Below, piece after piece: positions 1 to 10,938 of a stretch of 10,938 nt of DNA. Numbering within the stretch: position 1 is the first letter of the stretch; each line of letters begins with the position of its first letter. The notes under the pieces were generated by a model, which saw only the letters and a program-made list of their open reading frames with translations, was not told the DNA's origin and ran no database searches. A program made the translations under genes and the position numbers. The DNA is from a virus (Duplodnaviria; Heunggongvirae; Uroviricota; Caudoviricetes). The stretch is taken from positions 1-10,938 of IMG/VR virus record IMGVR_UViG_3300029212_000210. One strand, 5' to 3'.

Positions 1-816
1 ACGGTCTATCTTGGGGCAGGTTTAACTGAGCAGGATATTAATTATTTCTGCTTTTACTGGGATGATGTGGTTATTCTAGATAGTGAAAATATTCACTCGA
101 TTGTGCCTAAAGAAAAAGAATTATTAGATAATGGGGTATTACGTAGACCTATTATGAAACATGATGGTATGCTGAATATCCAAGACTTTCCATTTTTATA
201 TACGGAATTTCAGTTGCAGACATTGGATGAATTCAGGAAGAACGAGCCTGCTACTTATTGGCACTTTCATCAAACAGGGGAAAATTTAATATATGATAAA
301 GAACAGAAAACGGCCCTTCAGTTGAGATTGGAGTTGTTTAATGTTCTGAGAATTCCTGATAAAGATGCTCATATAGAAGATATATTACGTTTTAAAGATG
401 ATTGTCAGGATGATCTTAATGCGTTACATGAGTACTTAGAAAAACTGTATACTGAAGTCCTTTATTCTAGAGACCCTAATCTAACGAGGGCTAAAAATTT
501 TTCTTTATTACAAGAGGCTGTAGTTAATCTTGATAAAGCTATCGAAGGGAAATGGAGAAATCCTATCAGAATGGGAGTCAAAGCCAATCCAGAAGTAGAT
601 GGTGGGCAGGTTATGGAATTTTTAAAACCGTTGTACCATGCTGCTATTGCTGGTTATTCAGGCGGTATTATTCCCGGTATGGTTACAGCCTTGGCAACCG
701 CAATTCCAAGTTTTATAAAATTCCAACCAGAATGGGTGGGCTTTAGAGATAAGGGGCCTAAAGAATTAGCTTATCTTACCAAAGCAACGCATAAGGGGTT
801 GATTAAGAGAGCTTAA
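1..816 (+). CDS. Hypothetical protein, 5'-partial. The frame is open from position 1 and the ORF track starts it at a GTG at 67. AT-rich cargo gene in the P2 tin/old hotspot, with a hydrophobic C-terminal segment.
   Basis: Seen: an uninterrupted frame-1 ORF from the window edge to the stop at 814-816. GC is about 35% against about 55-60% in the neighbouring structural genes (counted by eye on sample stretches). Hydrophobic stretch GYSGGIIPGMVTALATAIPSFIKF near the C-terminus. I recognise no named family. Confidence 0.6.
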   Translation, partial: TVYLGAGLTEQDINYFCFYWDDVVILDSENIHSIVPKEKELLDNGVLRRPIMKHDGMLNIQDFPFLYTEFQLQTLDEFRKNEPATYWHFHQTGENLIYDKEQKTALQLRLELFNVLRIPDKDAHIEDILRFKDDCQDDLNALHEYLEKLYTEVLYSRDPNLTRAKNFSLLQEAVVNLDKAIEGKWRNPIRMGVKANPEVDGGQVMEFLKPLYHAAIAGYSGGIIPGMVTALATAIPSFIKFQPEWVGFRDKGPKELAYLTKATHKGLIKRA

Positions 817-918
817 GGCATTTTAATCGATTTTCGCAACTATATTCCTTCGTAACCACACAAGTGCATGACTATGCCGCATGAATCCGCATGATCGTTT
901 GAGGATCGTTTTAGCTGA

Positions 919-947
919 GGCCCGCTAGGAATGGCGGGCCTTTGCTT
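919..947 (+). terminator. Putative rho-independent terminator downstream of the cargo ORF
   Basis: Seen: stem GGCCCGC (919-925) paired with GCGGGCC (934-940), 8-nt loop, then TTTGCTT. Confidence 0.5.
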
Positions 948-988
948 ATGTCATGCAGGCGCATGAAAACCACTACATAAAGCGGGCA

Positions 989-1007
989 GGCGTGGCGGGG
1001 ATACGAG
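989..1007. other. Putative cos (cohesive-end) site of the P2-like genome
   Basis: Seen: GGCGTGGCGGGGATACGAG, located between the hotspot ORF and the 3' end of Q. Established (from memory): the P2 and 186 cohesive ends begin GGCG(A/T)GGCGGGGAAAGCA and lie next to the Q gene. The exact cut positions are not determinable here. Confidence 0.5.
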
Positions 1008-1095
1008 CGCGCGCAACGGGGTAAAATGGCCAAAATCCGGCGCAGCCTCTGGCCCGCTGGCAGCCTCATTTTGCGTAGGGGGAAAATGTCAGGAC

Positions 1096-1131
1096 AAAAA
1101 GAAACGCCCTGCAGAATGCTGCTGGGGCGTT
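1096..1131 (-). terminator. Rho-independent terminator of the P-Q operon
   Basis: Seen: inverted repeat AACGCCC (1103-1109) / GGGCGTT (1125-1131) with an inner GCAG/CTGC pair. On the minus strand it is followed by UCUUUUUGU (plus-strand A-run 1096-1102), 36 nt past the Q stop. Confidence 0.6.
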
Positions 1132-1166
1132 GTGAGAATTGGTCAGTTATTGATGTTGTGAGTATG

Positions 1167-2216
1167 TCAGCCTCGTTTGCTCTTAAGTCCTAAGTCATAG
1201 GTTTCAAAACGGATCACCTTTTCACCCAGCCAGTTGTTAAGCTCCAGCAGTCGCTTTTGCAGTGGCATCAGCTCATTGCGGACGAAAACACGGCTCGCCT
1301 TTTCCACATCACCGAAGCCGCCAGTGTTGTTGGGAATGATACCCATCATTTGCGGCGGTACGCGGTGTGCCGCCATCATGTCGTCCCGACTCACGTTCTT
1401 GATGTTCAGAAATTCATCCTTCGCCGCGACTTCCGACAACGGGATGATCTGAAGCCCGTCCTTTTTGCCGTTAGGCGAGTACATAAACAGGTTACGGAAG
1501 TTACCAGGACCTTTGGCACTTTTCATTGCGTTGCGGAGGTTGTTCACATCCTCCTGGTTCTGCGCGGCGTCGGTCATGTACATGATGAAGCCCGCATGGC
1601 TGCCGTTAATGTAATACTTCCGGCGGAACAGCGTGGCGGACTCGTTGAGCAGGGCGGATGGAATGGCAGAAAGGTAACCTGGCAGACCATAAATCTCCTG
1701 GTTGATATCCGGCTCCATCAGGTGGAAGACGTTACCTTTTGTGAACTGATACGGCTGTGTCGTCAGGCTGTATTGCACAAACCAGTAGGTATCCAGGTCT
1801 AACCCGCGTCGGGTGTATTTTGCCAGCGCAGGTTCAAGGGCGATAACTTCACCGAAGCGGTTCGTGCGTTTCTCCAGGTAGGCGTTACCAAATACCAGAT
1901 AGTCCTGCACAAAACGTGAAAAAGCCTGCTGGCTGAGCAGTGGGTGAGGGATATAGGTGCTGGTCAGAATGTTGCACTTTACTGCAATCGGTGAGCTGTG
2001 GTGTACGGCGGCGCGGAATGTTCGCGCCAGGCCGTCGAAACTCACAGGCGGCTCATACCAGCGGTCCATCTGTACGCATTCCACATAGTCCAGCAGTTCG
2101 CGGCGGTCAAGTACTGGAACGGGATCACCGAAGCTGAATGCTTCGGCTGAAGTCTGGCTTTTATGCTGAATCTGGTTCGTCGACGCAGCGCGGTTCTTCT
2201 TACTCTTTCCCATCAA
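1167..2216 (-). CDS. Q: Portal protein (P2 gpQ family)
   Basis: 349-aa ORF. Position and orientation match P2 Q (next to cos, transcribed toward cos, ATGA overlap with the P stop). The sequence matches my recollection of P2 gpQ. Confidence 0.9.
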   Translation of the reverse strand: MMGKSKKNRAASTNQIQHKSQTSAEAFSFGDPVPVLDRRELLDYVECVQMDRWYEPPVSFDGLARTFRAAVHHSSPIAVKCNILTSTYIPHPLLSQQAFSRFVQDYLVFGNAYLEKRTNRFGEVIALEPALAKYTRRGLDLDTYWFVQYSLTTQPYQFTKGNVFHLMEPDINQEIYGLPGYLSAIPSALLNESATLFRRKYYINGSHAGFIMYMTDAAQNQEDVNNLRNAMKSAKGPGNFRNLFMYSPNGKKDGLQIIPLSEVAAKDEFLNIKNVSRDDMMAAHRVPPQMMGIIPNNTGGFGDVEKASRVFVRNELMPLQKRLLELNNWLGEKVIRFETYDLGLKSKRG

Positions 2217-3979
2217 AAAATCTCCACAATATTGCTGGTATTGGCGGACTCGCCCTGCAGCGGTTCGTTAAACAGTGCGTGCATTGTTGCCCAGGCCAGA
2301 TCGGCGTGGCTGGCTTCTTCGCTGCGGCTGGCTTCATAGGTCGGGCGGTTGCCGCTGGCGGTGGTTGCGCGACGGATTGCCATGAATGACTGCGCAATGT
2401 CGGTGTGTCCGGCGTCAAACTCCAGACGGCGGTGGCTGATAATGTCGTAGGCCTTGAGTACCAGGGCATTTTTAACATTGGGGTTATAGACAAACTCCCG
2501 GACGGCAGGAAAGAAAGCTTTCACGTTCTCATAAACCCCGTGACCAACGCCGGTCGAGTCGATACCGATATACGTAACGTTGTACTGTTCGGTGAGTTTT
2601 TTGATGGCGTCAGCCTGGGCGCGGAAGTCCATCCCGCGCCACTGGTGACGCTCAAGAATGCGGAACTTACCACCCGGCACGGCTGGCGGAGCCACCACCA
2701 CGCATCCGGCACTGTCGCCGTTCTGCGTACCTTTTGCCGGGTCATAACCGATCCACACTTCGCGCCAGCCAAACGGGCGCAGCGCCAGTGCATGAAAGTC
2801 GGTCCAGACTTCCCAGCTGTCCACCATGCACGCCTGCAGCTCGCTGAGCGGGAACACGGACGCGAGATCGTCCACGAACTCACACATCAGCAGGTTCTGG
2901 TATTCGTCCGGGCTGTACTCCATGCGCAACTGGCCGAGGTCGAACAGGTTACAGCCACCGCGCACCGCATCTTCCACGGTGACTATCTGGCGGTATTGCC
3001 CGTCTGCGCACAGCAGGCCGGGGGCCAGATTGCTGTGGGACAGGTCGATGTCCACCTTGTCAGCTTTGTTGCGCCCACGGTTGAACAGCGCACCGGACCA
3101 GAACGGATAAGCACTGTGGGTCAGACTGGATGGTGTGGAAAAATAGGTCTGCCGCCATTTCTTGTGAATAGCCATACCGGAAGCCACTTTGCGTAGCTCC
3201 TGAAATTTCGGTATCCAGAAATATTCATCCAGATACAGGTTGCCGTGATAACTCTGGGCCGTGCGGGCATTGGTGCCGAGGAAGTAAAGCGTGGCCCCGT
3301 TAGGAAGCACCATCGGATCGCCTTTCAGCTCCACCTCCACTTCTTTGGCGAAGTCGATGATGTACTGCTTAAAGACGTGGGCCTGTGCCTTACTGGCGGA
3401 AAGGAAAATCTGGTTACGCCCGGTAAGCAGGGCGTCAATCAGGGCTTCACGGGCAAAGTAAAAGGTCGCGCCGATCTGGCGTGACTTCAGCAGGTTGCGG
3501 ATGCGGTTGGTTTTTCCGGCTTCCCACCAGTGGCGCTGGTAGTTGAACATGGAGGAATGGAAGATTTCTTCCAGCTTCTCAATCTGTTCATCGGTGAAGA
3601 CATTTTTTTCCGGCTGACGGCGCGGGCCTTTGTTGCGGTTGGCGACGTTAGGGTTTAAGTCGGCTTCGTTGCCGCCATTGTTAAACTTGCCGATCCGCGC
3701 GTGGCGCTCAGACTGGCGCGCCAGCAGGTCAATCTCTTTGAAATCTTTCCCTTCTTTGTGCTCCTTCATAATGAGCTGGCAGTAGCGTGCGGCGGTGGTG
3801 AGCTGCATCTGATCCAGCGGCCCATAGTCACCCCACTTGTCGCGTTTTTTCCAGCTGTGAACGGTTGCAACTTTCTCGCCCAGCATTTCAGCAATGCGGG
3901 CGACGCGGTATCCCTGAAAGTACAGCAGCATGGCCTGCCGACGGGGATCGAGATCTGCGGGTGTCAGTGTGGTGTTCAT
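2213..3979 (-). CDS. P: Terminase large (ATPase) subunit (P2 gpP family)
   Basis: 588-aa ORF immediately upstream of Q on the same strand. Length and sequence are consistent with P2 gpP (about 590 aa). Confidence 0.92.
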   Translation of the reverse strand: MNTTLTPADLDPRRQAMLLYFQGYRVARIAEMLGEKVATVHSWKKRDKWGDYGPLDQMQLTTAARYCQLIMKEHKEGKDFKEIDLLARQSERHARIGKFNNGGNEADLNPNVANRNKGPRRQPEKNVFTDEQIEKLEEIFHSSMFNYQRHWWEAGKTNRIRNLLKSRQIGATFYFAREALIDALLTGRNQIFLSASKAQAHVFKQYIIDFAKEVEVELKGDPMVLPNGATLYFLGTNARTAQSYHGNLYLDEYFWIPKFQELRKVASGMAIHKKWRQTYFSTPSSLTHSAYPFWSGALFNRGRNKADKVDIDLSHSNLAPGLLCADGQYRQIVTVEDAVRGGCNLFDLGQLRMEYSPDEYQNLLMCEFVDDLASVFPLSELQACMVDSWEVWTDFHALALRPFGWREVWIGYDPAKGTQNGDSAGCVVVAPPAVPGGKFRILERHQWRGMDFRAQADAIKKLTEQYNVTYIGIDSTGVGHGVYENVKAFFPAVREFVYNPNVKNALVLKAYDIISHRRLEFDAGHTDIAQSFMAIRRATTASGNRPTYEASRSEEASHADLAWATMHALFNEPLQGESANTSNIVEIF

Positions 3980-4025
3980 GGCACAAACCTACAGTCTTGA
4001 ATGAAGGCTTTCCCCGCCTGCGGTT

Positions 4026-4043
4026 TGTGTGGTTGTCGGTACA
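4026..4043. promoter_or_regulatory. Candidate Ogr-dependent late-promoter element (TGT-N12-ACA dyad) in the divergent P/O intergenic region
   Basis: Seen: TGTgtggttgtcggtACA, centred about 88 bp upstream of the O start codon. Established: P2 late promoters carry a TGT-N12-ACA element centred near -55. This pattern also occurs by chance a few times per 10 kb, so the position is what supports it. Confidence 0.5.
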
Positions 4044-4121
4044 AATACCGCGCATTGTTTCACTGCCCTCATCACCGCAACCATAAGGCTCCAGTAAGTT
4101 TTTTCTAACGGAGCACGGCTC

Positions 4122-4955
4122 ATGACAGTGAAAGCAAAGCGTTTTCGCATCGGGGTGGAAGGTGCCACTACCGACGGACGTGAAATCCAGCGTGAATGGC
4201 TGGAACAGATGGCAGCCAGCTACAACCCGGCGGTGTATACCGCGCTGATTAACCTTGAACACATCAAGTCTTATCTGCCGGACAGCACCTTTAACCGCTA
4301 CGGCAAGGTGACGGCGCTGTTTGCTGAAGAAATCACGGAAGGTCCGTTGGCAGGCAAGATGGCGCTGTATGCCGACGTTGAGCCAACGGAATCCCTGGTG
4401 GAACTGGTGAAAAAAGGCCAGAAATTATTCACCTCTATGGAAGTCAGCCCGAAGTTTGCTGATACGGGCAAAGCCTACCTGGTCGGCCTGGCTGCCACTG
4501 ATGACCCTGCCAGTCTGGGCACTGAAATGCTGACATTCAGCGCCAGTGCAGCCCATAACCCACTGGCAAACCGCAAGCAGAATCCTGCCAATCTCTTTAC
4601 CGCTGCAGAGGAAACGGTGATCGAACTGGAAGAAATCCAGGACGACAAACCGTCCCTGTTTGCCCGTGTCACGGCGCTGTTTACCAAAAAAGAGCAGTCC
4701 GATGACGCCCGGTTCGCTGATGTGCATAAGGCCGTGGAGCTGGTCGCCACTGAGCAGCAGAACCTGAGCGCACGCACCGAAAAATCCCTGTCTGAGCAGG
4801 AAGAACGCCTGTCTGAGCTGGAGACAGCCCTGCAGGCACAGCTGACCGCCTTTAACGAACTGGTGGACAAGCTGAGCCATGAAGACAGCCGCCAGGACTA
4901 CCGCCAGCGTGCAACAGGCGGTAACGCCCCCGCTGACACTCTGACCAATTGCTGA
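4122..4955 (+). CDS. O: Capsid scaffolding protein (P2 gpO family)
   Basis: 277-aa ORF, first gene of the rightward head operon. The acidic, coiled-coil-like middle and a C-terminus ending in TNC resemble P2 gpO. Confidence 0.88.
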   Translation: MTVKAKRFRIGVEGATTDGREIQREWLEQMAASYNPAVYTALINLEHIKSYLPDSTFNRYGKVTALFAEEITEGPLAGKMALYADVEPTESLVELVKKGQKLFTSMEVSPKFADTGKAYLVGLAATDDPASLGTEMLTFSASAAHNPLANRKQNPANLFTAAEETVIELEEIQDDKPSLFARVTALFTKKEQSDDARFADVHKAVELVATEQQNLSARTEKSLSEQEERLSELETALQAQLTAFNELVDKLSHEDSRQDYRQRATGGNAPADTLTNC

Positions 4956-4971
4956 TGGAGCACAAAACCTG

Positions 4972-6030
4972 ATGAAGAAGAATACCCGCTTTGCTTTTAA
5001 CGCTTACCTGCAGCAGCTGGCGCGTCTGAACGGTGTGGCTGTTGAAGAACTGTCCAGCAAATTCACCGTAGAGCCGTCTGTACAGCAGACGCTGGAAGAC
5101 CAGATCCAGCAGTCCGCCGCTTTCCTGACGCTGATTAATGTCACCCCGGTGACTGAACAGTCCGGTCAGTTGCTTGGATTGGGGGTTGGCAGCACCATTG
5201 CAGGAACCACTGATACCTCCGCGAAAGAGCGTGAGCCTGTCGATCCGACGCTGATGGTCGATGTGGAATATAAATGCGAGCAGACCAACTTTGACACGGT
5301 GCTGACCTACGCGAAGCTGGACCTGTGGGCGAAGTTTCAGGATTTCCAGGTGCGTATCCGTGACGCCATCGTGAAACGTCAGGCACTGGACCGCATCATG
5401 ATCGGCTTTAACGGCGTGAAGCGTGCGAAAACCTCCAACCGTAGCGAAAACCCGCTGCTGCAGGATGTGAACAAAGGCTGGCTGCAGAAAATCCGTGAGG
5501 ATGCATCGGATCACGTCATGGGCAGCACCACCACGGGCGGTGAAACCACACCGGGTGCGGTGAAAGTCGGGAAAGGTGGCGAATATGCCAACCTGGACGC
5601 AGTGGTGATGGATGCCGTCAATGAGCTTATCGACGTGGTCTACCAGGACGATGACGATCTGGTGGTGATTTGCGGGCGTGAACTGCTGTCTGACAAGTAT
5701 TTCCCGCTGGTCAACAAAGAGCAGGAAAACAGTGAAAAACTGGCTGCCGATATGATCATCAGTCAGAAGCGCATGGGGGGCCTGCAGGCCGTGCGTGCGC
5801 CGTTCTTCCCGCCGAATGCATTGCTGATCACCCGTCTGGATAACCTGTCCATCTACTGGCAGGAAGACACCCGTCGCCGTTCAGTTATCGACAACCCGAA
5901 ACGTGACCGGATTGAAAATTTTGAATCCGTTAACGAAGCCTATGTGGTTGAGGACTACCGCTGCGCCGCACTGGTGGAAAACATCCAGATTGGCGATTTC
6001 AGCGCCGCTGCAGCAGAAACCGGAGCGTAA
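4972..6030 (+). CDS. N: Major capsid protein (P2 gpN family)
   Basis: 352-aa ORF following O. Strong resemblance to my recollection of P2 gpN (for example the FAFNAYL, FTVEPSV and MIGFNGVKRA..SNRS.NPLLQDV stretches). Confidence 0.92.
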   Translation: MKKNTRFAFNAYLQQLARLNGVAVEELSSKFTVEPSVQQTLEDQIQQSAAFLTLINVTPVTEQSGQLLGLGVGSTIAGTTDTSAKEREPVDPTLMVDVEYKCEQTNFDTVLTYAKLDLWAKFQDFQVRIRDAIVKRQALDRIMIGFNGVKRAKTSNRSENPLLQDVNKGWLQKIREDASDHVMGSTTTGGETTPGAVKVGKGGEYANLDAVVMDAVNELIDVVYQDDDDLVVICGRELLSDKYFPLVNKEQENSEKLAADMIISQKRMGGLQAVRAPFFPPNALLITRLDNLSIYWQEDTRRRSVIDNPKRDRIENFESVNEAYVVEDYRCAALVENIQIGDFSAAAAETGA

Positions 6031-6033
6031 TTC

Positions 6034-6684
6034 ATGAGCCTGAGTCCCGCACGGCAGCATCGCCTGCGCGTCCAGGCTGAACAGGCCGCCCGCGAGGGCG
6101 GCAGTGTTCGCCACGCGTCGGGCTATGACCTGATGCTGCTGCAACTGGCGGAAGACCGCCGCCGTCTCAAGGGTGTTCAGTCCACGGTCAAAAAAGCGGA
6201 AATCAAGGTGGAGCTGCTGCCGAAGTACGCCGACTGGGCAGAGGGTGTCCTGGCTGCCGGAGGCGCACAGCAGGATGACGTGCTGATGTACGTGATGCTG
6301 TGGCGCATTGATGCCGGAGATTATGCCGGGGCGCTGGAGATCGGGCGTCACGCCCTGCGTCATGGCTGGGTGATGCCGTTAGGTAACCGCAACGTGCAGA
6401 CCGTGCTGGCAGAGGAAATGGCAGATGCAGCCCAGAGCGCAATGCTTGCCGCCACCGGCTTTGATGCCGATCTGTTGCTGCAGACGCTGGAGCTGACAGA
6501 CGGTATGGATATGCCGGACCAGTCACGGGCGCGTCTGCATAAAGCGATTGGCGCTGTCCTGAGTGAAAACAATCCGGCGTCCGCCCTTAATCATCTCAAC
6601 CATGCGTTACAGCTCGATCCCCGCTGTGGCGTGAAAAAAGACAAACAGCAGCTGGAGCGCAGACTGCGCAATGACAGCCGCTGA
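6034..6684 (+). CDS. M: Terminase small (endonuclease) subunit (P2 gpM family)
   Basis: 216-aa ORF directly after N (3-nt gap). Resembles P2 gpM (for example QDD.LM.VMLWR.D.GD.AGALEI, GVKK). Confidence 0.87.
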   Translation: MSLSPARQHRLRVQAEQAAREGGSVRHASGYDLMLLQLAEDRRRLKGVQSTVKKAEIKVELLPKYADWAEGVLAAGGAQQDDVLMYVMLWRIDAGDYAGALEIGRHALRHGWVMPLGNRNVQTVLAEEMADAAQSAMLAATGFDADLLLQTLELTDGMDMPDQSRARLHKAIGAVLSENNPASALNHLNHALQLDPRCGVKKDKQQLERRLRNDSR

Positions 6685-6704
6685 CAGAACGTGCCCCCGC
6701 GCAC

Positions 6705-6765
6705 GGGCGGCACGGGGTGGCGAAAGGCACTGCCACATCAAAACCCCGTCCACCGCCCTTTATTT
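6705..6765 (+). terminator. GC-rich stem-loop followed by TTTATTT between M and L. Possible attenuator or processing structure.
   Basis: Seen: GGGCGG-c-ACGGGG (6705-6717) pairs with CCCCGT-cca-CCGCCC (6744-6758), with an inner GTGGC/GCCAC hairpin, followed by TTTATTT (6759-6765) just before the L ribosome-binding site. Confidence 0.3.
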
Positions 6766-6779
6766 CAGGAGAAAGCAGC

Positions 6780-7313
6780 ATGAAGTTTGTTGCGCCAGAA
6801 CAGGCACCGGAACAGGCGGAAATCATCAGAAATACGCCGTTCTGGCCTGATGTGGACCTGTCGGAGTTTCGCAGTGTCATGCGCACTGACGGCACGGTGA
6901 CGCAGCCGCGTTTAAAGCAGGTTGCGCTGTCGGCAATTTCGGAGGTCAACGCAGAGCTGTATGAGTTTCGCAGACGCCAGCAGATGCTGGGGTATGCCTC
7001 GCTGGCAGAGATTCCGGCGGAACAGCTGGACGGCAAAAGTGAGCGCATTCAGCACTATTTCAACGCGGTTTACTGCTGGGCACGCGCCATGCTCAACGAA
7101 CGTTACCAGGACTATGACACCACGGCATCCGGTGTGAAGCGGGGCGAGGAACTGGCGGAAGCCAGCGGTGATTTATGGCGTGACGCCCGCTGGGCCATCA
7201 GCCGGGTACTCGAGGCCGGAGAATCAAGACAGCGTATTGCACTGATTTTTGATGTAGGCGTTTCTACCATTTATAGAAAATTTCCGGCAAATAAGATCAA
7301 TGAATCCCCCTGA
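6780..7313 (+). CDS. L: Head completion/stabilisation protein (P2 gpL family)
   Basis: The ORF track starts it at 6717, but an in-frame ATG at 6780 is preceded by AGGAGA and gives 177 aa, comparable to P2 gpL (169 aa). NTPFWPD.DL..FR and RRDARWAISR.L motifs match gpL. The C-terminal 25 aa are diverged. Confidence 0.82.
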   Translation: MKFVAPEQAPEQAEIIRNTPFWPDVDLSEFRSVMRTDGTVTQPRLKQVALSAISEVNAELYEFRRRQQMLGYASLAEIPAEQLDGKSERIQHYFNAVYCWARAMLNERYQDYDTTASGVKRGEELAEASGDLWRDARWAISRVLEAGESRQRIALIFDVGVSTIYRKFPANKINESP

Positions 7314-7361
7314 ATCAGCATTATGTTGATTATCCCTGCAAGCAGACAAATACCGTTATTT

Positions 7362-7379
7362 TGTGTGAATAACGACACA
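7362..7379 (+). promoter_or_regulatory. Candidate Ogr-dependent late promoter (F-promoter equivalent), TGT-N12-ACA dyad
   Basis: Seen: TGTgtgaataacgacACA, centred about 85 bp upstream of the FI-fragment start codon. Same reasoning as the O-promoter dyad. Confidence 0.5.
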
Positions 7380-7455
7380 ACTGCGCTTAGCTGTTTGTCA
7401 GGCACAATCACTTCAACATAGGGCGAAGCCTAATCCAATCAGGAGGTTCGCCACT

Positions 7456-7866
7456 ATGGCTCAGGATTACCACCACGGGGTGCGCGTTGTTGAAGTCAAC
7501 GAAGGCACCCGATCTATTACCACGGTGAGCACCGCCATCGTGGGTATGGTCTGCACGGGCGATGATGCCGATGCAAAAATGTTTCCTCTTAATAAACCCG
7601 TGCTGATCACTGATGTGCTGACTGCCAGCGGTAAAGCGGGTGAGTCCGGTACTCTGGCCCGTTCGCTGGATGCCATCGCTGACCAGGCAAAACCCGTGAC
7701 CATTGTTGTGCGTGTGCCGCAGGGTGAAACGGAAGACGAAACCACGACCAATATCATCGGCGCAGTGACTGCTGAAGGTAAAAAAACAGGTATGAAAGCC
7801 CTGTTAACCGAAGTGCTGGAATGGCGGTATAAAGCGATTCAGAGAAGCGGGGCCAACGATGAGTGA
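7456..7866 (+). pseudogene. FI: Tail sheath (P2 gpFI family) N-terminal fragment, about 122 codons, fused in frame to about 14 unrelated codons that end in an ATGA overlap with the next ORF
   Basis: Seen: 136-aa ORF with an AGGAGG ribosome-binding site. The first ~120 aa match my recollection of the P2 gpFI N-terminus (DYHHGV.V.E.NEGTR, TVSTAIVGMVCT, FPLNKPVLIT, IADQ.KPVT). Full-length FI is about 396 aa. Confidence 0.72.
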
Positions 7867-8959
7867 TAACAACCTGCGTCTGCAGGTCATTCTTAATGCG
7901 GTTGACAAGCTCACCCGCCCATTTCGATCTGCGCAGGCCAGTTCAAGAGAACTGGCTGCTGCTGTCAAAAAATCCCGCGATGCAATAAAGCAGCTTGATC
8001 AGGCCGGGAGCAGTCTGGACAGCTTCCGAAAGCTGCAGGCAGAAAATCAGAAATTAGGCGACAGGCTGAACTATGCCCGCCAGCGTGCAAATTTGCTCAG
8101 TCAGGAACTGGGAGCGATGGGGCCGCCTTCGCAACGTCAGGTTGTTGCTCTGGGCCGTCAACGGCTGGCTGTTCAGCGCCTGGAAGAACGCCAGAAAAAG
8201 CTGCAGCAGCAGACGGCGCTTGTGCGTGCTGAACTGTACCGGGCGGGAATTTCTGCGAAAGACGATGCGGGAGCAACTGCCCGTTTAGCCCGTGAAACAT
8301 CACGTTATAACCAGGAACTTTCGAAACAGGAGGCGCGGCTGAAGCGACTGGGGGAAGCTCAGCGCAGGATGAATGCAGCGCGTGCCAGTTATGCCCGTTC
8401 GCTGGAGGTGCGTGATCGTATTGCAGGTGCCGGAGCCACCACCACGGCTGCAGGGCTGGCAATGGGTGCGCCAGTGATGGCGGCAGTAAAAAGCTATACC
8501 AGCATGGAAGATGCCATGAAAGGTGTGGCAAAGCAGGTCAATGGTCTGCGTGACGATACCCGCGAACCCGCGAAGAAAGAAAGCACCACGGTGAAGCGTA
8601 AGCGCAGGACTAAGAAGCAGAAGAAAGAGCCGGAAGCGAAGCAGGGCGATTACCTGGTGGGTACGGATGAAAACGTGCTGGTACTTAATCGCACCTATGC
8701 CAACCGGAGCAACGCCGAACGGGCGGCAAAAATGCAGTGGGAACGCCTGCAACGCGGCGTTGCGTCATTCTCGCTACAACTGGCGGAAGGGCGGGCAGAT
8801 CTCTACACGGAAATGCCTGTGAAGGTCAGTGGTTTTAAACAGCCGATAGATGATGCGGAATGGACCATTACGACTCTGACACATACCGTCAGCCCGGATA
8901 ACGGTTTTACAACCAGTATTGAACTCGAAGTGAAGATTGATGATCTTGAAATGGAATAA
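7859..8959 (+). pseudogene. In-frame fusion of a tail tape-measure (gpT-like) N-terminal ~235 aa to the tail protein D (gpD-like) C-terminal ~130 aa
   Basis: Seen: 366-aa ORF. The N-terminal part is helical and coiled-coil-like with a Gly/Ala-rich hydrophobic segment, and sits where T should be. The C-terminal part (lysine-rich linker, then ERLQRGVA.FSLQLAEGRADLYTE.PVKVSGFK ... GFTTS.ELEV) matches the gpD C-terminus as I recall it, and sits directly upstream of ogr as D does in P2. Junction near 8560-8580. Confidence 0.62.
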
Positions 8960-8991
8960 AGTGTTCTCAATATTGATATTTTGTGTATCAT

Positions 8992-8997
8992 TACAAT
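8992..8997 (+). promoter_or_regulatory. Possible -10 hexamer (TACAAT) of the ogr promoter
   Basis: Seen: TACAAT about 30 nt upstream of the ogr start in an AT-rich spacer. No convincing -35 at 17 bp. Confidence 0.3.
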
Positions 8998-9027
8998 GAT
9001 TCTGATAGCAAAGGTAGGGATCTGGAT

Positions 9028-9246
9028 ATGATGAATTGTCCAAAGTGTGGTCATGCGGCACACACAAGGAGCAGTTTTCAAGTAACTGAAAGCACCAAAG
9101 AGCGTTACTGCCAGTGCCAAAATATTAACTGCGGGAGCACTTTTGTTACCCATGAAACAGTGGTCCGGTTTATTGTGACACCCGCACTGATTGCTACTGC
9201 TCCTCCACATCCATTGCCAGGTGGTCAGGGGCATATGAATTTTTGA
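9028..9246 (+). CDS. ogr: Late transcription activator Ogr (C4 zinc-finger)
   Basis: Seen: the ATG at 9028 (or 9031) is preceded by AGGTAGGGA and gives 72 aa with the CPKCGH...CQCQNINC zinc-finger pattern, equal in length to P2 Ogr. The ORF-track start at 8983 is a GTG further upstream and is not preferred. Confidence 0.9.
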   Translation: MMNCPKCGHAAHTRSSFQVTESTKERYCQCQNINCGSTFVTHETVVRFIVTPALIATAPPHPLPGGQGHMNF

Positions 9247-9253
9247 GAAAGAG

Positions 9254-9276
9254 AACCTGCTACGGCAGGTTTTTAT
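9254..9276. terminator. Bidirectional rho-independent terminator between convergent ogr and the BRCT-like ORF
   Basis: Seen: AACCTGC (9254-9260), loop TACG, GCAGGTT (9265-9271), then TTTTATT on the plus strand and CUCUUUCUC on the minus strand. It overlaps the minus-strand stop codon. Confidence 0.6.
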
Positions 9277-9755
9277 TCATCTGGGATCTCACCCGTTTCA
9301 AGAAAATGTATAAAGCCAGGCTCATCTATGATGATTGTGCCTTTCATCCTGGCTGCCGATACTTTTGATGGGCCTGCATTGTAACCGCAACAGAGCATCT
9401 GAAGGCTTTGGGTTACAGAGGTTCTTACCGTTAATCCTTGTTCATTCGCCTTATCAACCAATCTTTCTTTATCTGCTTTCTTAAATCCGGTGAAACACAC
9501 ATCGAATGTATTTTTTTTCGGACCAGACTGCTTAGTGAGATGTGAGTAGCTTTCGGGGAGGAATGACGCGCATTCCTGAATGGCTTGTTCTGGTGAATCG
9601 TACTGTTTAAGAATGCGGTCTTTTCGGAAGGTTTTTATTCGATCGGTGTTCTTACAAATGCCCTGTATATGATTTTCGCTATAACTGATGCTCTGTATAG
9701 AGTGAACACCGATACGACCATTTGCATTGATGTAAACAAAGTGAAGTTCTTCCAT
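9273..9755 (-). CDS. Hypothetical protein with a C-terminal BRCT-like domain and a small beta-rich N-terminal domain that is possibly WYL-like
   Basis: Seen: 160-aa ORF with an AGAGG ribosome-binding site 6 nt upstream of the ATG. GC is about 42%, lower than the prophage backbone. The C-terminal ~80 aa (FDVCFTGF..ADKERL..KA.EQGL.V..SV...L..L..G.N.G.SK...A...G..II.E..F..FL) fit the BRCT pattern seen in the LigA C-terminus. The N-terminal motif R.KTFRKDRI resembles the end of WYL domains. Domain calls are from pattern memory only. Confidence 0.65.
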   Translation of the reverse strand: MEELHFVYINANGRIGVHSIQSISYSENHIQGICKNTDRIKTFRKDRILKQYDSPEQAIQECASFLPESYSHLTKQSGPKKNTFDVCFTGFKKADKERLVDKANEQGLTVRTSVTQSLQMLCCGYNAGPSKVSAARMKGTIIIDEPGFIHFLETGEIPDE

Positions 9756-9781
9756 GTGAAACCTCTTTGCATGATTTCAAG

Positions 9782-9820
9782 ATGGCGACAGGCAAGATGG
9801 ACGCAAAAGTCTGTCGCCAT
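9782..9820. repeat. Perfect 10-bp inverted repeat ATGGCGACAG / CTGTCGCCAT separated by 19 bp, overlapping a CAAGATGG direct repeat
   Basis: Seen: arms at 9782-9791 and 9811-9820. CAAGATGG occurs at 9778-9785 and 9793-9800. Located between the BRCT-like ORF start and the ssrA terminator. Confidence 0.45.
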
Positions 9821-9835
9821 TTTGCCGCCACTACC

Positions 9836-9870
9836 AAAGAAAAAGGGGCTACGCTTTCACGTAACCCCTT
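9836..9870 (-). terminator. Rho-independent terminator of ssrA
   Basis: Seen (minus strand): AAGGGG-u-UACG, loop UGAAAG, CGUA-g-CCCC, followed by UUUUUCUUU, starting 9 nt after the tmRNA CCA end. Confidence 0.6.
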
Positions 9871-9878
9871 GATTTATT

Positions 9879-10241
9879 TGGTGGAGCTGGCGGGAGTTGA
9901 ACCCGCGTCCGAAATTCCTACATCCTCGGTACTACATGCTTAGTCAGTCTTTACATTCGCTTGCCAGCTGCGGACGGACACGCCACTAACAAACTAGCCT
10001 GATTAAGTTTTAACGCTTCAACCCCAGGCAGGGCTTCCACGCGATCTCTTTTGGGTTTGACCTCTCTTGATCCCCGTCCTAAGAGCGGAGGCTAGGGAGA
10101 GAGGGCTCTAAGCAGGTTATTAAGCTGCTAAAGCGTAGTTTTCGTCGTTTGCGACTATTTTTTGCGGCTTTTTACGAGGCCAACCGCCCCTCGGCATGCA
10201 CCTTGGGTTTCGCAAATCCCGTCGAATCCAGAATCAGCCCC
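9879..10241 (-). ncRNA. ssrA: tmRNA (SsrA), complete, 363 nt
   Basis: Seen: the reverse complement runs from GGGGCTGATTCTGGATTCGACGGG to GTTCAACTCCCGCCAGCTCCACCA and includes the tag-encoding stretch GCAAACGACGAAAACTACGCTTTAGCAGCTTAA (ANDENYALAA). It matches E. coli ssrA as I recall it. Confidence 0.97.
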
Positions 10242-10255
10242 AATGTGTAAAGGTA

Positions 10256-10261
10256 AGTATA
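10256..10261 (-). promoter_or_regulatory. Possible -10 hexamer (TATACT) of the ssrA promoter
   Basis: Seen: TATACT on the minus strand, 14 nt upstream of the mature tmRNA 5' end. Established: tmRNA is made as a precursor with a short 5' leader. No convincing -35. Confidence 0.3.
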
Positions 10262-10455
10262 CCAGATTTATGAGCGCCATGACCAGCCTCAATGGCGTTA
10301 TCGTTAAAGATTTAGCACCCATGTAGCCTGATTTTTATTCGATTAAGCAATGGGATGGCAACATTTGTGTCGGATGTGATAGCCAATAAGATGTTCATTC
10401 GCGCCGCCGGAGAGGGAGGCGCGGTGAGGAACTGGTCAATAATTGGAGTGCAGGT

Positions 10456-10938
10456 TTAACGGTGGGCGTTTTTCATGATACGCGCTTTATCCACCTGCCA
10501 TTCGCGCTCTTTGATATCTGAACGTTTATCGTGCTGTTTCTTACCTTTGGCGACGCCGATTTTCACTTTGCACCAGGCATTTTTCCAGTACAGGGAGAGC
10601 GCCACTACGGTATAGCCTTCTCGATTGACGCGACCGTACAATGAGTCCAGTTCGCGCTGGTTGAGAAGTAACTTGCGGGTACGGGTAGGATCGCACACCA
10701 CATGCGTGGAGGCCACTGCCATTGGCGTGATGTTTGCGCCAAACAGGAACGCTTCTCCGTCACGCAGAAGGACATAGCTGTCGCTGATATTGGCTTTTCC
10801 TGCGCGCAGGGATTTAACTTCCCAGCCTTGCAGGGCAAGTCCCGCTTCGAACTCTTCTTCGATAAAGTATTCGTGACGGGCGCGCTTGTTAAGCGCGATG
10901 GTCGCTGAACCAGGTTTATGTGCTTTTTTCTTCGTCAT
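10456..10938 (-). CDS. smpB: SsrA-binding protein SmpB, complete. The start codon is the last 3 nt of the window.
   Basis: 160-aa ORF that matches E. coli SmpB as I recall it, upstream of ssrA on the same strand, which is the conserved arrangement. Confidence 0.96.

What the first reader, a model, noticed from the sequence alone, without database searches (positions are those of the whole stretch)
1..816. AT-rich cargo gene of unknown family in the P2 tin/old hotspot next to cos, truncated by the window edge
Seen: a long ORF open to position 1, at about 35% GC inside a backbone of about 55-60% GC, ending 170 nt before the cos-like site, with a C-terminal hydrophobic segment (GYSGGIIPGMVTALATAIPSFIKF) that could be a membrane-inserting or effector helix. 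Established: in P2 the genes at this position are tin and old, both phage-exclusion genes, and this locus in P2-like prophages has been reported as a hotspot carrying diverse anti-phage systems (work by Rousset and colleagues, cited from memory). Inference: this is the most likely place in the window for an undescribed defence or abortive-infection function, probably with its 5' part and any partner genes upstream of position 1. I do not recognise it as Old, Tin, a retron reverse transcriptase, a Gabija component or any other named family.
Basis: partly seen in the sequence, partly recalled or inferred. Interest (0 to 1): 0.8.

Follow-up and report, generated by a model that had tools for sequence, protein, structure and literature searches.

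The report
Untested DUF6236 cargo gene beside P2 cos
The AT-rich ORF at the window's left edge is a nearly complete single-gene cargo in the defence hotspot of a P2-like prophage; it belongs to the uncharacterised family DUF6236, which was catalogued at this spot in 2022 but never tested, and phage exclusion is its most likely but unproven role.

Summary
Window 1-816 (+) is a real ORF at 36.6% GC (GC3 30%, against 65-70% in the neighbouring portal and terminase genes). It ends 172 nt before a cos-like site and carries a moderately hydrophobic segment rich in small residues.

Just 19 codons are missing, and no partner gene lies upstream. The cargo is a 1,061-bp single-gene island between the conserved DinI-like gene and the conserved cos block.

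The protein (290 aa, WP_053901735.1) does belong to a named family, Pfam DUF6236. This exact sequence is already listed as P2-hotspot system #125 in Rousset et al. 2022, but it is not among the systems they cloned.

It matches no PADLOC model and is unrelated to Tin, Old or DUF4238. A confident AlphaFold model has no relative in PDB or BFVD.

The family is large: at least 1,000 clusters at 50% identity. Members recur as lone accessory genes in temperate phages, next to cos, between the lysis and packaging modules, or before the lysis genes. Some sit beside Old-like, AbiU-like or AbiD/PD-T4-5-like genes, and some persist in decayed prophages.

Best reading: a stand-alone phage-exclusion or abortive-infection protein (confidence about 0.42). 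The mechanism is unproven, and the hydrophobic segment is not a canonical transmembrane helix.

The parts
1..816 (+). Codons 20-290 plus stop of a 290-aa DUF6236-family protein (WP_053901735.1). The first 19 codons (MKRGIVANPNEMSFHRNNS) lie just left of the window.
   Evidence: Translation; 100% identical full gene at L001:11944-12816; Pfam PF19749 E=6e-21; ORF statistics.
1..351 (+). N-terminal alpha/beta domain (residues 20-136 in the window; full domain 1-136). It carries the family-conserved R3/G4 (outside the window), Y38-W39-D40, R68-P69, W106/H109 and L135-x-x-P138.
   Evidence: AlphaFold2 model m368a10cff7a7, pLDDT 76-98 over this part; conservation in A2 and A3.
373..543 (+). Three-helix region (residues 144-200) with the most conserved linear motif of the family: DILxFKxxxxDELxALHxYLxxLYxxxxxSxD.
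   Evidence: F150, K151, Y169 and D177 are conserved in at least 90% of 136 sequences.
595..729 (+). Hydrophobic segment rich in small residues, with glycine-zipper-like motifs (residues 218-262). Its composition is conserved; its sequence is not.
   Evidence: G+A+S+T is 41% here against 21% in the rest of the protein; charged residues 10% against 26%. The density of [GAS]xxx[GAS]xxx[GAS] is 9-fold higher, and 111 of 136 members have at least one. The hydropathy maximum falls here in 90% of members, but the family median is only 1.49. pLDDT is 47-68.
730..816 (+). C-terminal beta-strands (residues 263-290) that return to the core sheet, with the conserved LAYLxKA motif (Y277), then the stop codon.
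817..863 (+). 3' end of the cargo island. The cargo/backbone junction is at about 863/864.
   Evidence: In other P2-like prophages, homology to the window starts at 863-866 (query 264-267 of window:600-1250).
864..1018 (.). Conserved P2-family cos block, shared by 1,267 of 5,426 E. coli genomes. It contains a GC-rich hairpin at 917-942 (11 bp, extended 913-946, followed by a broken U-run, CUUAUG) and the cos-like site at 989-1003.
   Evidence: hairpin about -25 kcal/mol; P2 cosR from NC_001895.
1167..2216 (-). Portal protein gene (gpQ homologue), the right-hand border of the hotspot. The slot between cos and Q (1019-1166) is empty here. In relatives it holds a PIN-domain gene or an AIPR/AbiU-like gene.
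   Evidence: RefSeq annotation of the identical prophage; relatives L002 and L029; PADLOC AbiU 5e-24 for the AIPR protein.

Best explanation
This is a self-contained, horizontally acquired single-gene cargo (moron) of a P2/186-like prophage. It encodes a soluble cytoplasmic protein of the DUF6236 family.

Its most likely role is to benefit the lysogen by excluding other phages, as a one-protein exclusion or abortive-infection module.

Proposed mechanism (inferred, not shown):
- The conserved N-terminal alpha/beta domain and three-helix region form the sensing or regulatory body. Its conserved residues are aromatic and basic (R3, Y38-W39-D40, R68, W106, K151, Y169, D177, Y277), which suggests a ligand- or protein-binding pocket.
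- The poorly conserved, glycine-zipper-like hydrophobic hairpin (residues 218-262) is normally packed against the core.
- On an infection cue the hairpin is released. It then oligomerises or inserts into the inner membrane and arrests the cell before the invading phage completes its cycle.

Shown: gene, family, island boundaries, lack of a partner, distribution, composition of the hairpin, lack of known homologues.

Inferred: the defence role, the trigger and the membrane step.
For: 1. Locus. The gene sits in the gpA-gpQ hotspot, where P2 has old and tin. In that hotspot Rousset et al. confirmed defence by old-tin, found it in 3 of 8 further cloned systems, and found it for the TIR system of phage AC1.

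2. Foreign, modular cargo. GC is 36.6% and GC3 30%. The island is 1,061 bp with sharp junctions. It is present in only 22 of 5,426 E. coli genomes, about 1.7% of those carrying the cos block, at 99.3% identity or more across unrelated hosts.

3. It stands alone. The same gene occurs alone, or combined with different independent second modules: AIPR/AbiU-like, PIN, three hypothetical genes, or an Old-like ATPase.

4. Company. Beside relatives lie an Old-like gene (PADLOC Old 2e-19), an AbiU-like gene (5e-24), an AbiD/PD-T4-5-like HEPN gene only 20 nt upstream on Acinetobacter plasmids (7e-10), and a type II methyltransferase.

5. Retention. The gene is kept in decayed prophages that have lost their structural genes: E. 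coli E2 (with PIN) and Hafnia alvei (with the Old-like gene).

6. Family distribution. The family has at least 1,000 clusters at 50% identity, nearly all stand-alone proteins of about 285 aa. Members recur as lone inserts at classic moron sites of unrelated temperate phages:
- between the lysis cassette and the terminase in lambdoid and P22-like prophages (at least 27 of 52 and at least 23 of 52 IMG/VR loci);
- before XhlA-holin-lysin in a Clostridium prophage;
- at the end of a Vibrio phage genome.

7. Protein features. There is no predicted canonical TM, so a secreted virulence factor is unlikely (inference). The hydrophobic hairpin has conserved composition but not sequence, with a 9-fold glycine-zipper enrichment. 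Weak recurrent Pfam hits to glycine-rich membrane families (DUF1269, DUF3482, Bacteriocin_IIc) probably fall there; this was verified only for one DUF3482 hit.
Against: - There is no experimental evidence of any kind, and no paper mentions the family.
- It matches no PADLOC 2.0 model. Among 136 family members there are only scattered single hits.
- The hotspot also carries non-defence cargo, such as partition systems and cytolethal distending toxin, and 5 of the 8 additional P2-hotspot candidates gave no protection in Rousset's assays.
- The neighbour associations are anecdotal, with no background statistics. Several chromosomal homologues sit among ordinary metabolic or LPS genes.
- The hydrophobic segment is not a canonical TM. 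Its Kyte-Doolittle maximum is 1.55. A rough additive Hessa-scale estimate gives +5 kcal/mol (scale values and control sequences recalled from memory). Rousset's table appears to list no TM for it. It could simply be buried core.
- No consensus sigma-70 promoter was found in the leader.
Confidence: 0.42

Rival explanations
1. It is a lysogenic-conversion or fitness gene unrelated to phage defence, for example a cytoplasmic regulator, stress-tolerance factor or small-molecule-binding enzyme that helps the lysogen in some niche.
For: The P2 hotspot also holds non-defence cargo. Some homologues are lone chromosomal inserts among metabolic or LPS genes with no phage or defence context. There is no PADLOC hit. 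The conserved aromatic and basic residues would also fit a ligand-binding protein or enzyme.
Against: There is no match to any enzyme, regulator or DNA-binding family in Pfam, NCBIfam, PDB or BFVD. The distribution is dominated by temperate phages of very different hosts, from Enterobacteria and Vibrio to Clostridium, which argues against a niche-specific host function.
Confidence: 0.2
2. It is a phage-side accessory of lysis or late development, such as a membrane-active lysis-timing factor or a late-stage superinfection-exclusion factor, expressed with the late genes rather than from the prophage.
For: In lambdoid and P22-like prophages the homologue sits directly after Rz/spanin, in the same orientation as the lysis and terminase genes. 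In Clostridium it sits directly before XhlA-holin-lysin. The hydrophobic hairpin has marginal hydrophobicity, similar in my rough calculation to a holin TM.
Against: In P2-like phages the gene is far from the lysis genes and is co-oriented with the early and replication genes. It is present in only about 1.7% of P2-like loci, so it is dispensable. It is retained in prophage remnants that can no longer lyse. The junctions next to lysis cassettes are also generic moron sites.
Confidence: 0.12
3. It is an anti-defence (counter-defence) protein that helps the phage overcome host immunity or satellite interference.
For: It is variable, AT-rich, single-gene phage cargo with no known fold. Anti-defence genes are also variable cargo in phage genomes (general knowledge).
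Against: At 290 aa it is large for typical inhibitors. It is retained in dead prophages, where a phage-side function is useless. It occurs on small non-mobilisable plasmids and in chromosomes. It is co-located with defence genes rather than with early anti-restriction genes.
Confidence: 0.08
4. It is a selfish addiction module: a self-inhibited toxin whose loss or activation kills the cell, stabilising the prophage without real anti-phage benefit.
For: It is a lone gene retained in decayed prophages, with a possible latent membrane-active segment.
Against: No antitoxin partner is conserved. A single stable protein cannot by itself provide post-segregational killing. This rival overlaps mechanistically with the abortive-infection reading.
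Confidence: 0.06

Closest known systems
Pfam PF19749 / DUF6236, also PHROG 23128; listed as system #125 in Table S5B of Rousset et al. 2022
   Same: The protein is a member: 75.3 bits against a cut-off of 26.2, and phrog_23128 E=2e-31 over the full length. The identical 290-aa sequence is listed as a P2-hotspot 'system' with 23 occurrences.
   Different: Nothing differs. The family has no assigned function, structure or literature. The window copy lacks its first 19 codons only because of the window edge. This clade matches Pfam profile positions 75-319, so it lacks the model's N-terminal ~70 positions.
Rst_DUF4238 (single-gene anti-T7 system from the same P2 hotspot, Rousset 2022)
   Same: Same locus, same one-gene architecture, similar size (309 against 290 aa), unknown molecular function, native AT-rich cargo.
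   Different: There is no homology: hhalign probability 0.16% between the DUF6236 profile and the tested DUF4238 protein, and no Pfam DUF4238 hit. DUF4238 is experimentally validated; DUF6236 is not.
P2 Tin and Old (the canonical occupants of this position)
   Same: Same cos-proximal slot in the same phage family. Both are non-essential lysogenic-conversion genes that exclude other phages.
   Different: There is no sequence relationship to Tin (BLASTP E=3.8; hhalign probability 0.13%). The protein has none of Old's ATPase or TOPRIM domains. In P2, old and tin are transcribed leftwards from a promoter next to cos. This gene is on the opposite strand, co-oriented with gene A.
One-protein abortive-infection factors and defence effectors that act on the membrane (analogy only, e.g. 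lactococcal lone Abi proteins; TM effectors of CBASS, Pycsar or retron systems; Cam1)
   Same: It would work like them if the hydrophobic hairpin is a conditional membrane effector fused to a sensing body in one polypeptide.
   Different: No PADLOC Abi or effector model matches. No canonical TM helix is predicted. There is no signalling partner such as a cyclase nearby. A few CARF proteins, including Cam1, appear among the Foldseek hits, but only at probabilities of 0.2 or less, which is not evidence.

Membership tests
Pfam DUF6236 (PF19749) | Score above the curated gathering threshold of the family HMM | tested here: met
   75.3 bits against a 26.2 cut-off, E=6.4e-21, residues 35-281 on profile positions 75-319 of 324. 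All 136 aligned relatives also hit it.
Pfam DUF6236 (PF19749) | Stand-alone single-domain protein of about 280-295 aa | tested here: met
   Most of the best 150 representatives are 270-312 aa and match end to end. Rare N-terminal SEC-C fusions exist.
P2 Tin | Sequence homology to Tin (NP_046797) | tested here: not met
   BLASTP E=3.8; hhalign probability 0.13%.
OLD-family nuclease (P2 Old) / Gabija GajA / PARIS AriA | ABC-type ATPase (AAA_15/AAA_21) plus TOPRIM domains | tested here: not met
   Pfam finds only DUF6236. PADLOC finds nothing at E<=1. By contrast the Hafnia neighbour gene does hit Old at 2e-19.
Retron / Abi reverse transcriptases | RVT_1 reverse-transcriptase domain | tested here: not met
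   No RVT hit in Pfam or PADLOC.
Rst_DUF4238 | DUF4238 domain, or homology to the validated TA007 protein | tested here: not met
   hhalign probability 0.16%; no Pfam DUF4238 hit.
Any defence family in PADLOC-DB 2.0 | Match to a PADLOC HMM | tested here: not met
   0 families at E<=1 for this protein. Across 136 relatives there are only single scattered hits, the best being PDC-S12 at 1.2e-5 in one member. Newer DefenseFinder and PADLOC releases could not be queried.
Integral-membrane effector | At least one predicted transmembrane helix | tested here: inconclusive
   The Kyte-Doolittle 19-residue maximum is 1.55, just under the usual 1.6; the family median is 1.49. A rough additive Hessa estimate gives +5 kcal/mol (values from memory). 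On my reading of the flattened text, row #125 of Rousset's Table S5B has no TM entry. No dedicated TM predictor was available.
Anti-phage defence system (functional definition) | Reduces plating or propagation of at least one phage when expressed in a sensitive host | not testable with these tools
   Not among the cloned systems in Tables S2A and S2B of Rousset et al.. No literature exists.
Anti-phage defence system (genomic definition) | Statistically enriched next to known defence genes | tested here: inconclusive
   Co-resident with Old-like, AbiU-like, AbiD/PD-T4-5-like HEPN and MTase genes in four settings. But several chromosomal copies have ordinary neighbours, and no background statistic could be computed.
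Phage moron / hotspot cargo | Discrete insert with deviant composition, sporadic among otherwise collinear phages, at a module junction | tested here: met
   1,061-bp island with sharp junctions. GC3 is 30% against 65-70%. It is in 22 of 1,267 genomes that carry the cos block. Homologues sit at lysis/packaging junctions of other phages.

The most novel reading that the evidence does not exclude
DUF6236 is a widespread, structurally orphan family of one-protein abortive-infection or exclusion factors carried by temperate phages of both Gram-negative and Gram-positive bacteria. A novel alpha/beta-plus-helical sensor body holds a latent glycine-zipper hairpin. Infection releases the hairpin, which then permeabilises or depolarises the inner membrane. 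That would be a self-contained sensor-effector with no partner genes and no relative among known defence proteins.
Probability: 0.25. Interest if true: 0.7.

Novelty: new member of a known kind. Interest (0 to 1): 0.45.

Why it matters
If the gene does exclude phages, it would add a very compact defence family of about 870 bp to the catalogue. That family is missing from PADLOC 2.0, has at least 1,000 sequence clusters and has a fold with no solved relative. It would also show that the lysis/packaging junction of lambdoid phages and the tail/lysis junction of Firmicutes phages carry the same defence cargo as the P2 cos hotspot.

In practical terms the candidate is well defined and cheap to test: a 1,061-bp island with known boundaries, plus a short list of conserved residues to mutate.

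If it does nothing against phages, it is simply one more uncharacterised moron. The locus-based expectation that hotspot cargo means defence would then be weakened for this family.

Tried and rejected
- AlphaFold2 with only 13 close homologues gave an unusable model (pLDDT 41). It was replaced by a 136-sequence alignment (pLDDT 84.4, pTM 0.84).
- A profile search of PDB sequences gave only 14-3-3 noise at E=0.18.
- NCBIfam gave no hit.
- Homology to Tin and to DUF4238 was rejected.
- The idea of an upstream partner gene was rejected by the island boundaries and by contexts where the gene stands alone.
- A 485-aa glycosyltransferase-like neighbour was considered as a partner. It follows the gene in only 12 of 52 lambdoid loci and is absent from the P2, Serratia and P22-like contexts, so it was treated as a separate moron.
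- The hairpin at 917-942 was considered as a cargo-specific terminator. It lies inside the cos block conserved in all P2-like prophages, so it belongs to the backbone.
- The genome-contig scan with the broad alignment failed for lack of a conserved stretch. With the narrower alignment it returned only 2 loci.
- Two encoding-contig look-ups landed on contigs too short to be informative.
- Literature searches for DUF6236, PF19749, the WP accessions and PDC-S12 gave nothing useful.
Full report

Frame 1 of the + strand is open from base 1 to the stop at 814-816. The other five frames of the same stretch carry 15-32 stops. None of 20,000 shuffles keeps the frame open (analytic P about 4e-10).

GC is 36.6% over 1-816, and 0.33-0.35 over the first 600 bases. 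It is 53.9% over 1167-10938. Third-position GC is 30%, against 65% in the portal gene and 70% in the terminase gene.

A cos-like site, GGCGTGGCGGGGATA, lies at 989-1003, 172 nt after the stop. The P2 record gives cosR as GGCGAGGCGGGGAAAGCAC.

All four observations are therefore confirmed.

2. What is the gene, and how much is missing?

A megablast against complete E. coli genomes finds the first 1,200 bases at 100% identity in a P2/186-like prophage of strain 22-245. There the gene is 873 nt (L001:11944-12816) and is annotated 'DUF6236 family protein', WP_053901735.1. The window lacks only the first 19 codons.

Family and homology searches on the full protein gave:
- Pfam: PF19749 (DUF6236), 75.3 bits against a cut-off of 26.2.
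- PHROGs: phrog_23128, unknown function, E=2e-31.
- NCBIfam and PADLOC-DB 2.0: nothing.

3. Boundaries and partners.

Homology between this prophage and other P2-like prophages ends on the left at L001 ~11802, 70 nt after the stop of the conserved DinI-like gene. It resumes on the right at window ~864.

The cargo is therefore a 1,061-bp island. It contains a 141-nt AT-rich leader with a strong AAGGAG ribosome-binding site, the single ORF, and 47 nt of trailer. No consensus sigma-70 promoter was detected in the leader.

The next 155 nt (864-1018) are a cos block shared by 1,267 of 5,426 E. coli genomes. This block contains an 11-bp GC-rich hairpin at 917-942 and the cos-like site. The hairpin belongs to the backbone, not to the cargo.

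That is not borne out. Upstream lie the conserved replication endonuclease, a small ORF and the DinI-like gene.

4. Prior knowledge.

Rousset et al. 2022 (PMC9122126) define the gpA-gpQ interval as a hotspot. They validated old-tin, DUF4238, a three-gene system, DprA+PRTase and the AC1 TIR system. They also note non-defence cargo there: partition systems in about a quarter of P2-like phages and cytolethal distending toxin in about 2%.

Their Table S5B lists this exact 290-aa sequence as system #125, 'DUF6236', with 23 occurrences. On my reading of the flattened text, the signal-peptide, TM and notes columns are empty. The sequence is absent from Tables S2A and S2B, which list the cloned systems. 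It has therefore been catalogued but never tested.

Full-text searches for DUF6236, PF19749 and the protein accessions return no paper.

5. Distribution in E. coli and close relatives.

The gene is in 22 of 5,426 complete genomes, always on the chromosome, at 99.3% identity or more. The hosts include chicken, pig, deer, pangolin and human. That is about 1.7% of genomes carrying the cos block.

It occurs in several arrangements:
- alone, as in this window and in L011;
- with a second, independent module on the other side of the cos-like site: an AIPR protein that hits PADLOC AbiU at 5e-24 (L002), or a PIN-domain protein (L029);
- for a 61%-identical orthologue, followed by three hypothetical genes (L013).

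In E. coli E2 the prophage is a remnant. Its terminase is truncated and its structural genes are gone, yet it keeps DUF6236 and PIN. In Hafnia alvei a remnant consisting of a portal fragment and ogr keeps a 69%-identical orthologue together with an Old-like ATPase (PADLOC Old 2e-19).

6. The wider family.

A profile search of 1.84 billion representative proteins finds at least 1,000 clusters at E<=1e-3 and 447 at E<=1e-10. Most of the best 150 are stand-alone proteins of about 280-295 aa. Three main clades emerge.

Contexts, using precomputed Pfam annotation or my own ORF calls with cluster labels checked by Pfam:
- In lambdoid and HK97-like prophages of Citrobacter, Enterobacter and Serratia, and in a P22-like prophage, the gene lies between the holin-endolysin-Rz cassette and HNH/terS/terL.
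- Among 52 IMG/VR loci, at least 27 have lysis genes within three genes upstream and at least 23 have packaging genes within three genes downstream.
- In a Clostridium intestinale prophage it lies between the tail genes and XhlA-holin-lysin.
- In a Vibrio phage it is the terminal gene of the deposited genome, next to an HNH gene.
- On Acinetobacter plasmids it starts 20 nt after a HEPN gene that hits PD-T4-5 and AbiD (7e-10).
- On Vibrio plasmids it follows a type II methyltransferase.
- Some chromosomal copies are lone inserts among thioredoxin-like, P450 or LPS glycosyltransferase genes.

No partner is conserved. A 485-aa glycosyltransferase-like protein follows the gene in only 12 of 52 lambdoid loci. 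A few members carry an N-terminal SEC-C zinc motif.

7. The protein.

With a 136-sequence alignment, AlphaFold2 gives a confident model (pLDDT 84.4, pTM 0.84). Its parts are:
- an N-terminal alpha/beta domain (residues 1-136);
- three helices (144-200);
- a strand (209-216);
- a less confident helical excursion (222-252, pLDDT 47-68);
- two further strands (258-282) that return to the sheet.

Residues conserved in at least 90% of the 136 sequences are G4, Y38, W39, D40, W106, L135, P138, F150, K151, Y169, D177 and Y277. In the closer 24-sequence alignment R3 and R68 are invariant and H162, S175 and W204 are at least 90% conserved. This is an aromatic and basic set, with no recognisable nuclease, NTPase or protease motif.

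8. The hydrophobic segment.

Residues 218-262 hold the hydropathy maximum in 90% of family members, but the value is borderline: 1.55 here and a family median of 1.49.

Its composition is conserved while its sequence is not. G+A+S+T is 41% against 21% in the rest of the protein, and charged residues are 10% against 26%. The density of [GAS]xxx[GAS]xxx[GAS] is nine-fold higher, and the motif is present in 111 of 136 members.

Weak recurrent Pfam hits to glycine-rich membrane families (DUF1269, DUF3482, Bacteriocin_IIc) probably fall in this segment. The position was verified for only one DUF3482 hit.

A rough additive Hessa-scale sum gives about +5 kcal/mol. The scale values and control sequences were recalled from memory, so this is indicative only. 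The value is far from a classical TM and similar to a holin helix in the same calculation.

I conclude that the protein is soluble as made. Conditional membrane insertion of a glycine-zipper hairpin is possible but unproven. The segment could equally be buried core.

9. Most likely function.

The evidence is circumstantial but consistent: a validated defence hotspot, foreign composition, sporadic modular presence, independence from any partner, recurrence at moron sites of unrelated temperate phages, company of Old-like, AbiU-like and AbiD-like genes, and retention in dead prophages. The best explanation is a stand-alone phage-exclusion or abortive-infection protein (confidence 0.42).

The sensor-body and latent-hairpin mechanism is an inference layered on top of that, at roughly 0.2-0.25.

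The rivals are:
- a non-defence conversion gene (0.20);
- a lysis or late-development accessory, suggested by the adjacency to lysis cassettes (0.12);
- an anti-defence protein (0.08);
- an addiction module (0.06).

10. Verdict.

The finding is real and correctly located. The gene is nearly complete, has no hidden partners, belongs to a named but uncharacterised family, and has already been catalogued at this very hotspot. Its interest lies in being a cheap, well-bounded, structurally orphan candidate from a large family that current defence catalogues miss. It does not lie in any surprising feature shown here.

Interest: 0.45. Novelty: new member of a known kind (hotspot cargo, candidate single-gene exclusion factor).

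Noticed in passing
window 1019-1166; L002:9027-10990; L029:5317-6730: The hotspot has two slots separated by the cos-like site. DUF6236 sits before cos. In relatives a second module, either an AIPR/AbiU-like gene or a PIN-domain gene, sits between cos and the portal gene. That slot is empty in this window, apart from a 55-aa ORF at 1026-1193 that overlaps the end of Q.
   Followed up: partly
L001:11242-11257 (about 750 nt left of the window start): A LexA-box-like sequence, CTGTAAATATAAATAG, lies about 42 nt upstream of the small ORF plus DinI-like pair, recalling the SOS-controlled tum operon of phage 186 (from memory). By visual inspection of the spacer (the scan also found none) there is no intrinsic terminator between the DinI-like stop and the DUF6236 start, so SOS-driven read-through into the cargo gene is conceivable.
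   Followed up: partly
L018:9060-10517; L020:8958-10415; L034, L057, L062, L064, L065, L068, L072 and others: A conserved 485-aa protein follows the DUF6236 homologue in 12 of 52 lambdoid viral loci. It has only a weak Glycos_transf_2 match and no PADLOC hit, and is often followed by a ~197-aa protein. It is probably a separate moron of unknown role.
   Followed up: partly
P0052 and P0156 (family members outside the window): Some DUF6236 proteins carry an N-terminal SEC-C zinc-binding motif (Pfam PF02810, E=8e-11 and 3e-7). This is the only recurrent domain fusion seen in the family.
   Followed up: no
L016:6934-8882 (Acinetobacter lwoffii plasmid pALWED1.3; the same in A. indicus): A HEPN protein that hits PADLOC PD-T4-5 and AbiD ends 20 nt before the DUF6236 homologue. 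This is the only context that looks like a two-gene operon.
   Followed up: partly
L001:2559-5073 (between int and cI, outside the window): The same prophage carries another cargo block next to the integrase: an ASCH-domain protein, an N-acetyltransferase and a hypothetical protein. This is a second variable region of P2-like phages.
   Followed up: no
alignment A2 (136 family members), PADLOC scan: One member hits the defence-candidate model PDC-S12 at E=1.2e-5, and one or more members hit E1-E2/E2 models at about 1e-5 to 1e-4. Which members these are, and whether the hits reflect composition or real homology, was not resolved.
   Followed up: no
window 7200-7500 and 8850-9900: Two further dips in GC (0.40-0.47) fall inside the late region. 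In the RefSeq annotation of the identical prophage they coincide with the end of the head completion gene through tail protein X into the start of the holin gene, and with the LysC and tail-completion genes. They are much milder than the cargo gene's dip and were not examined.
   Followed up: no
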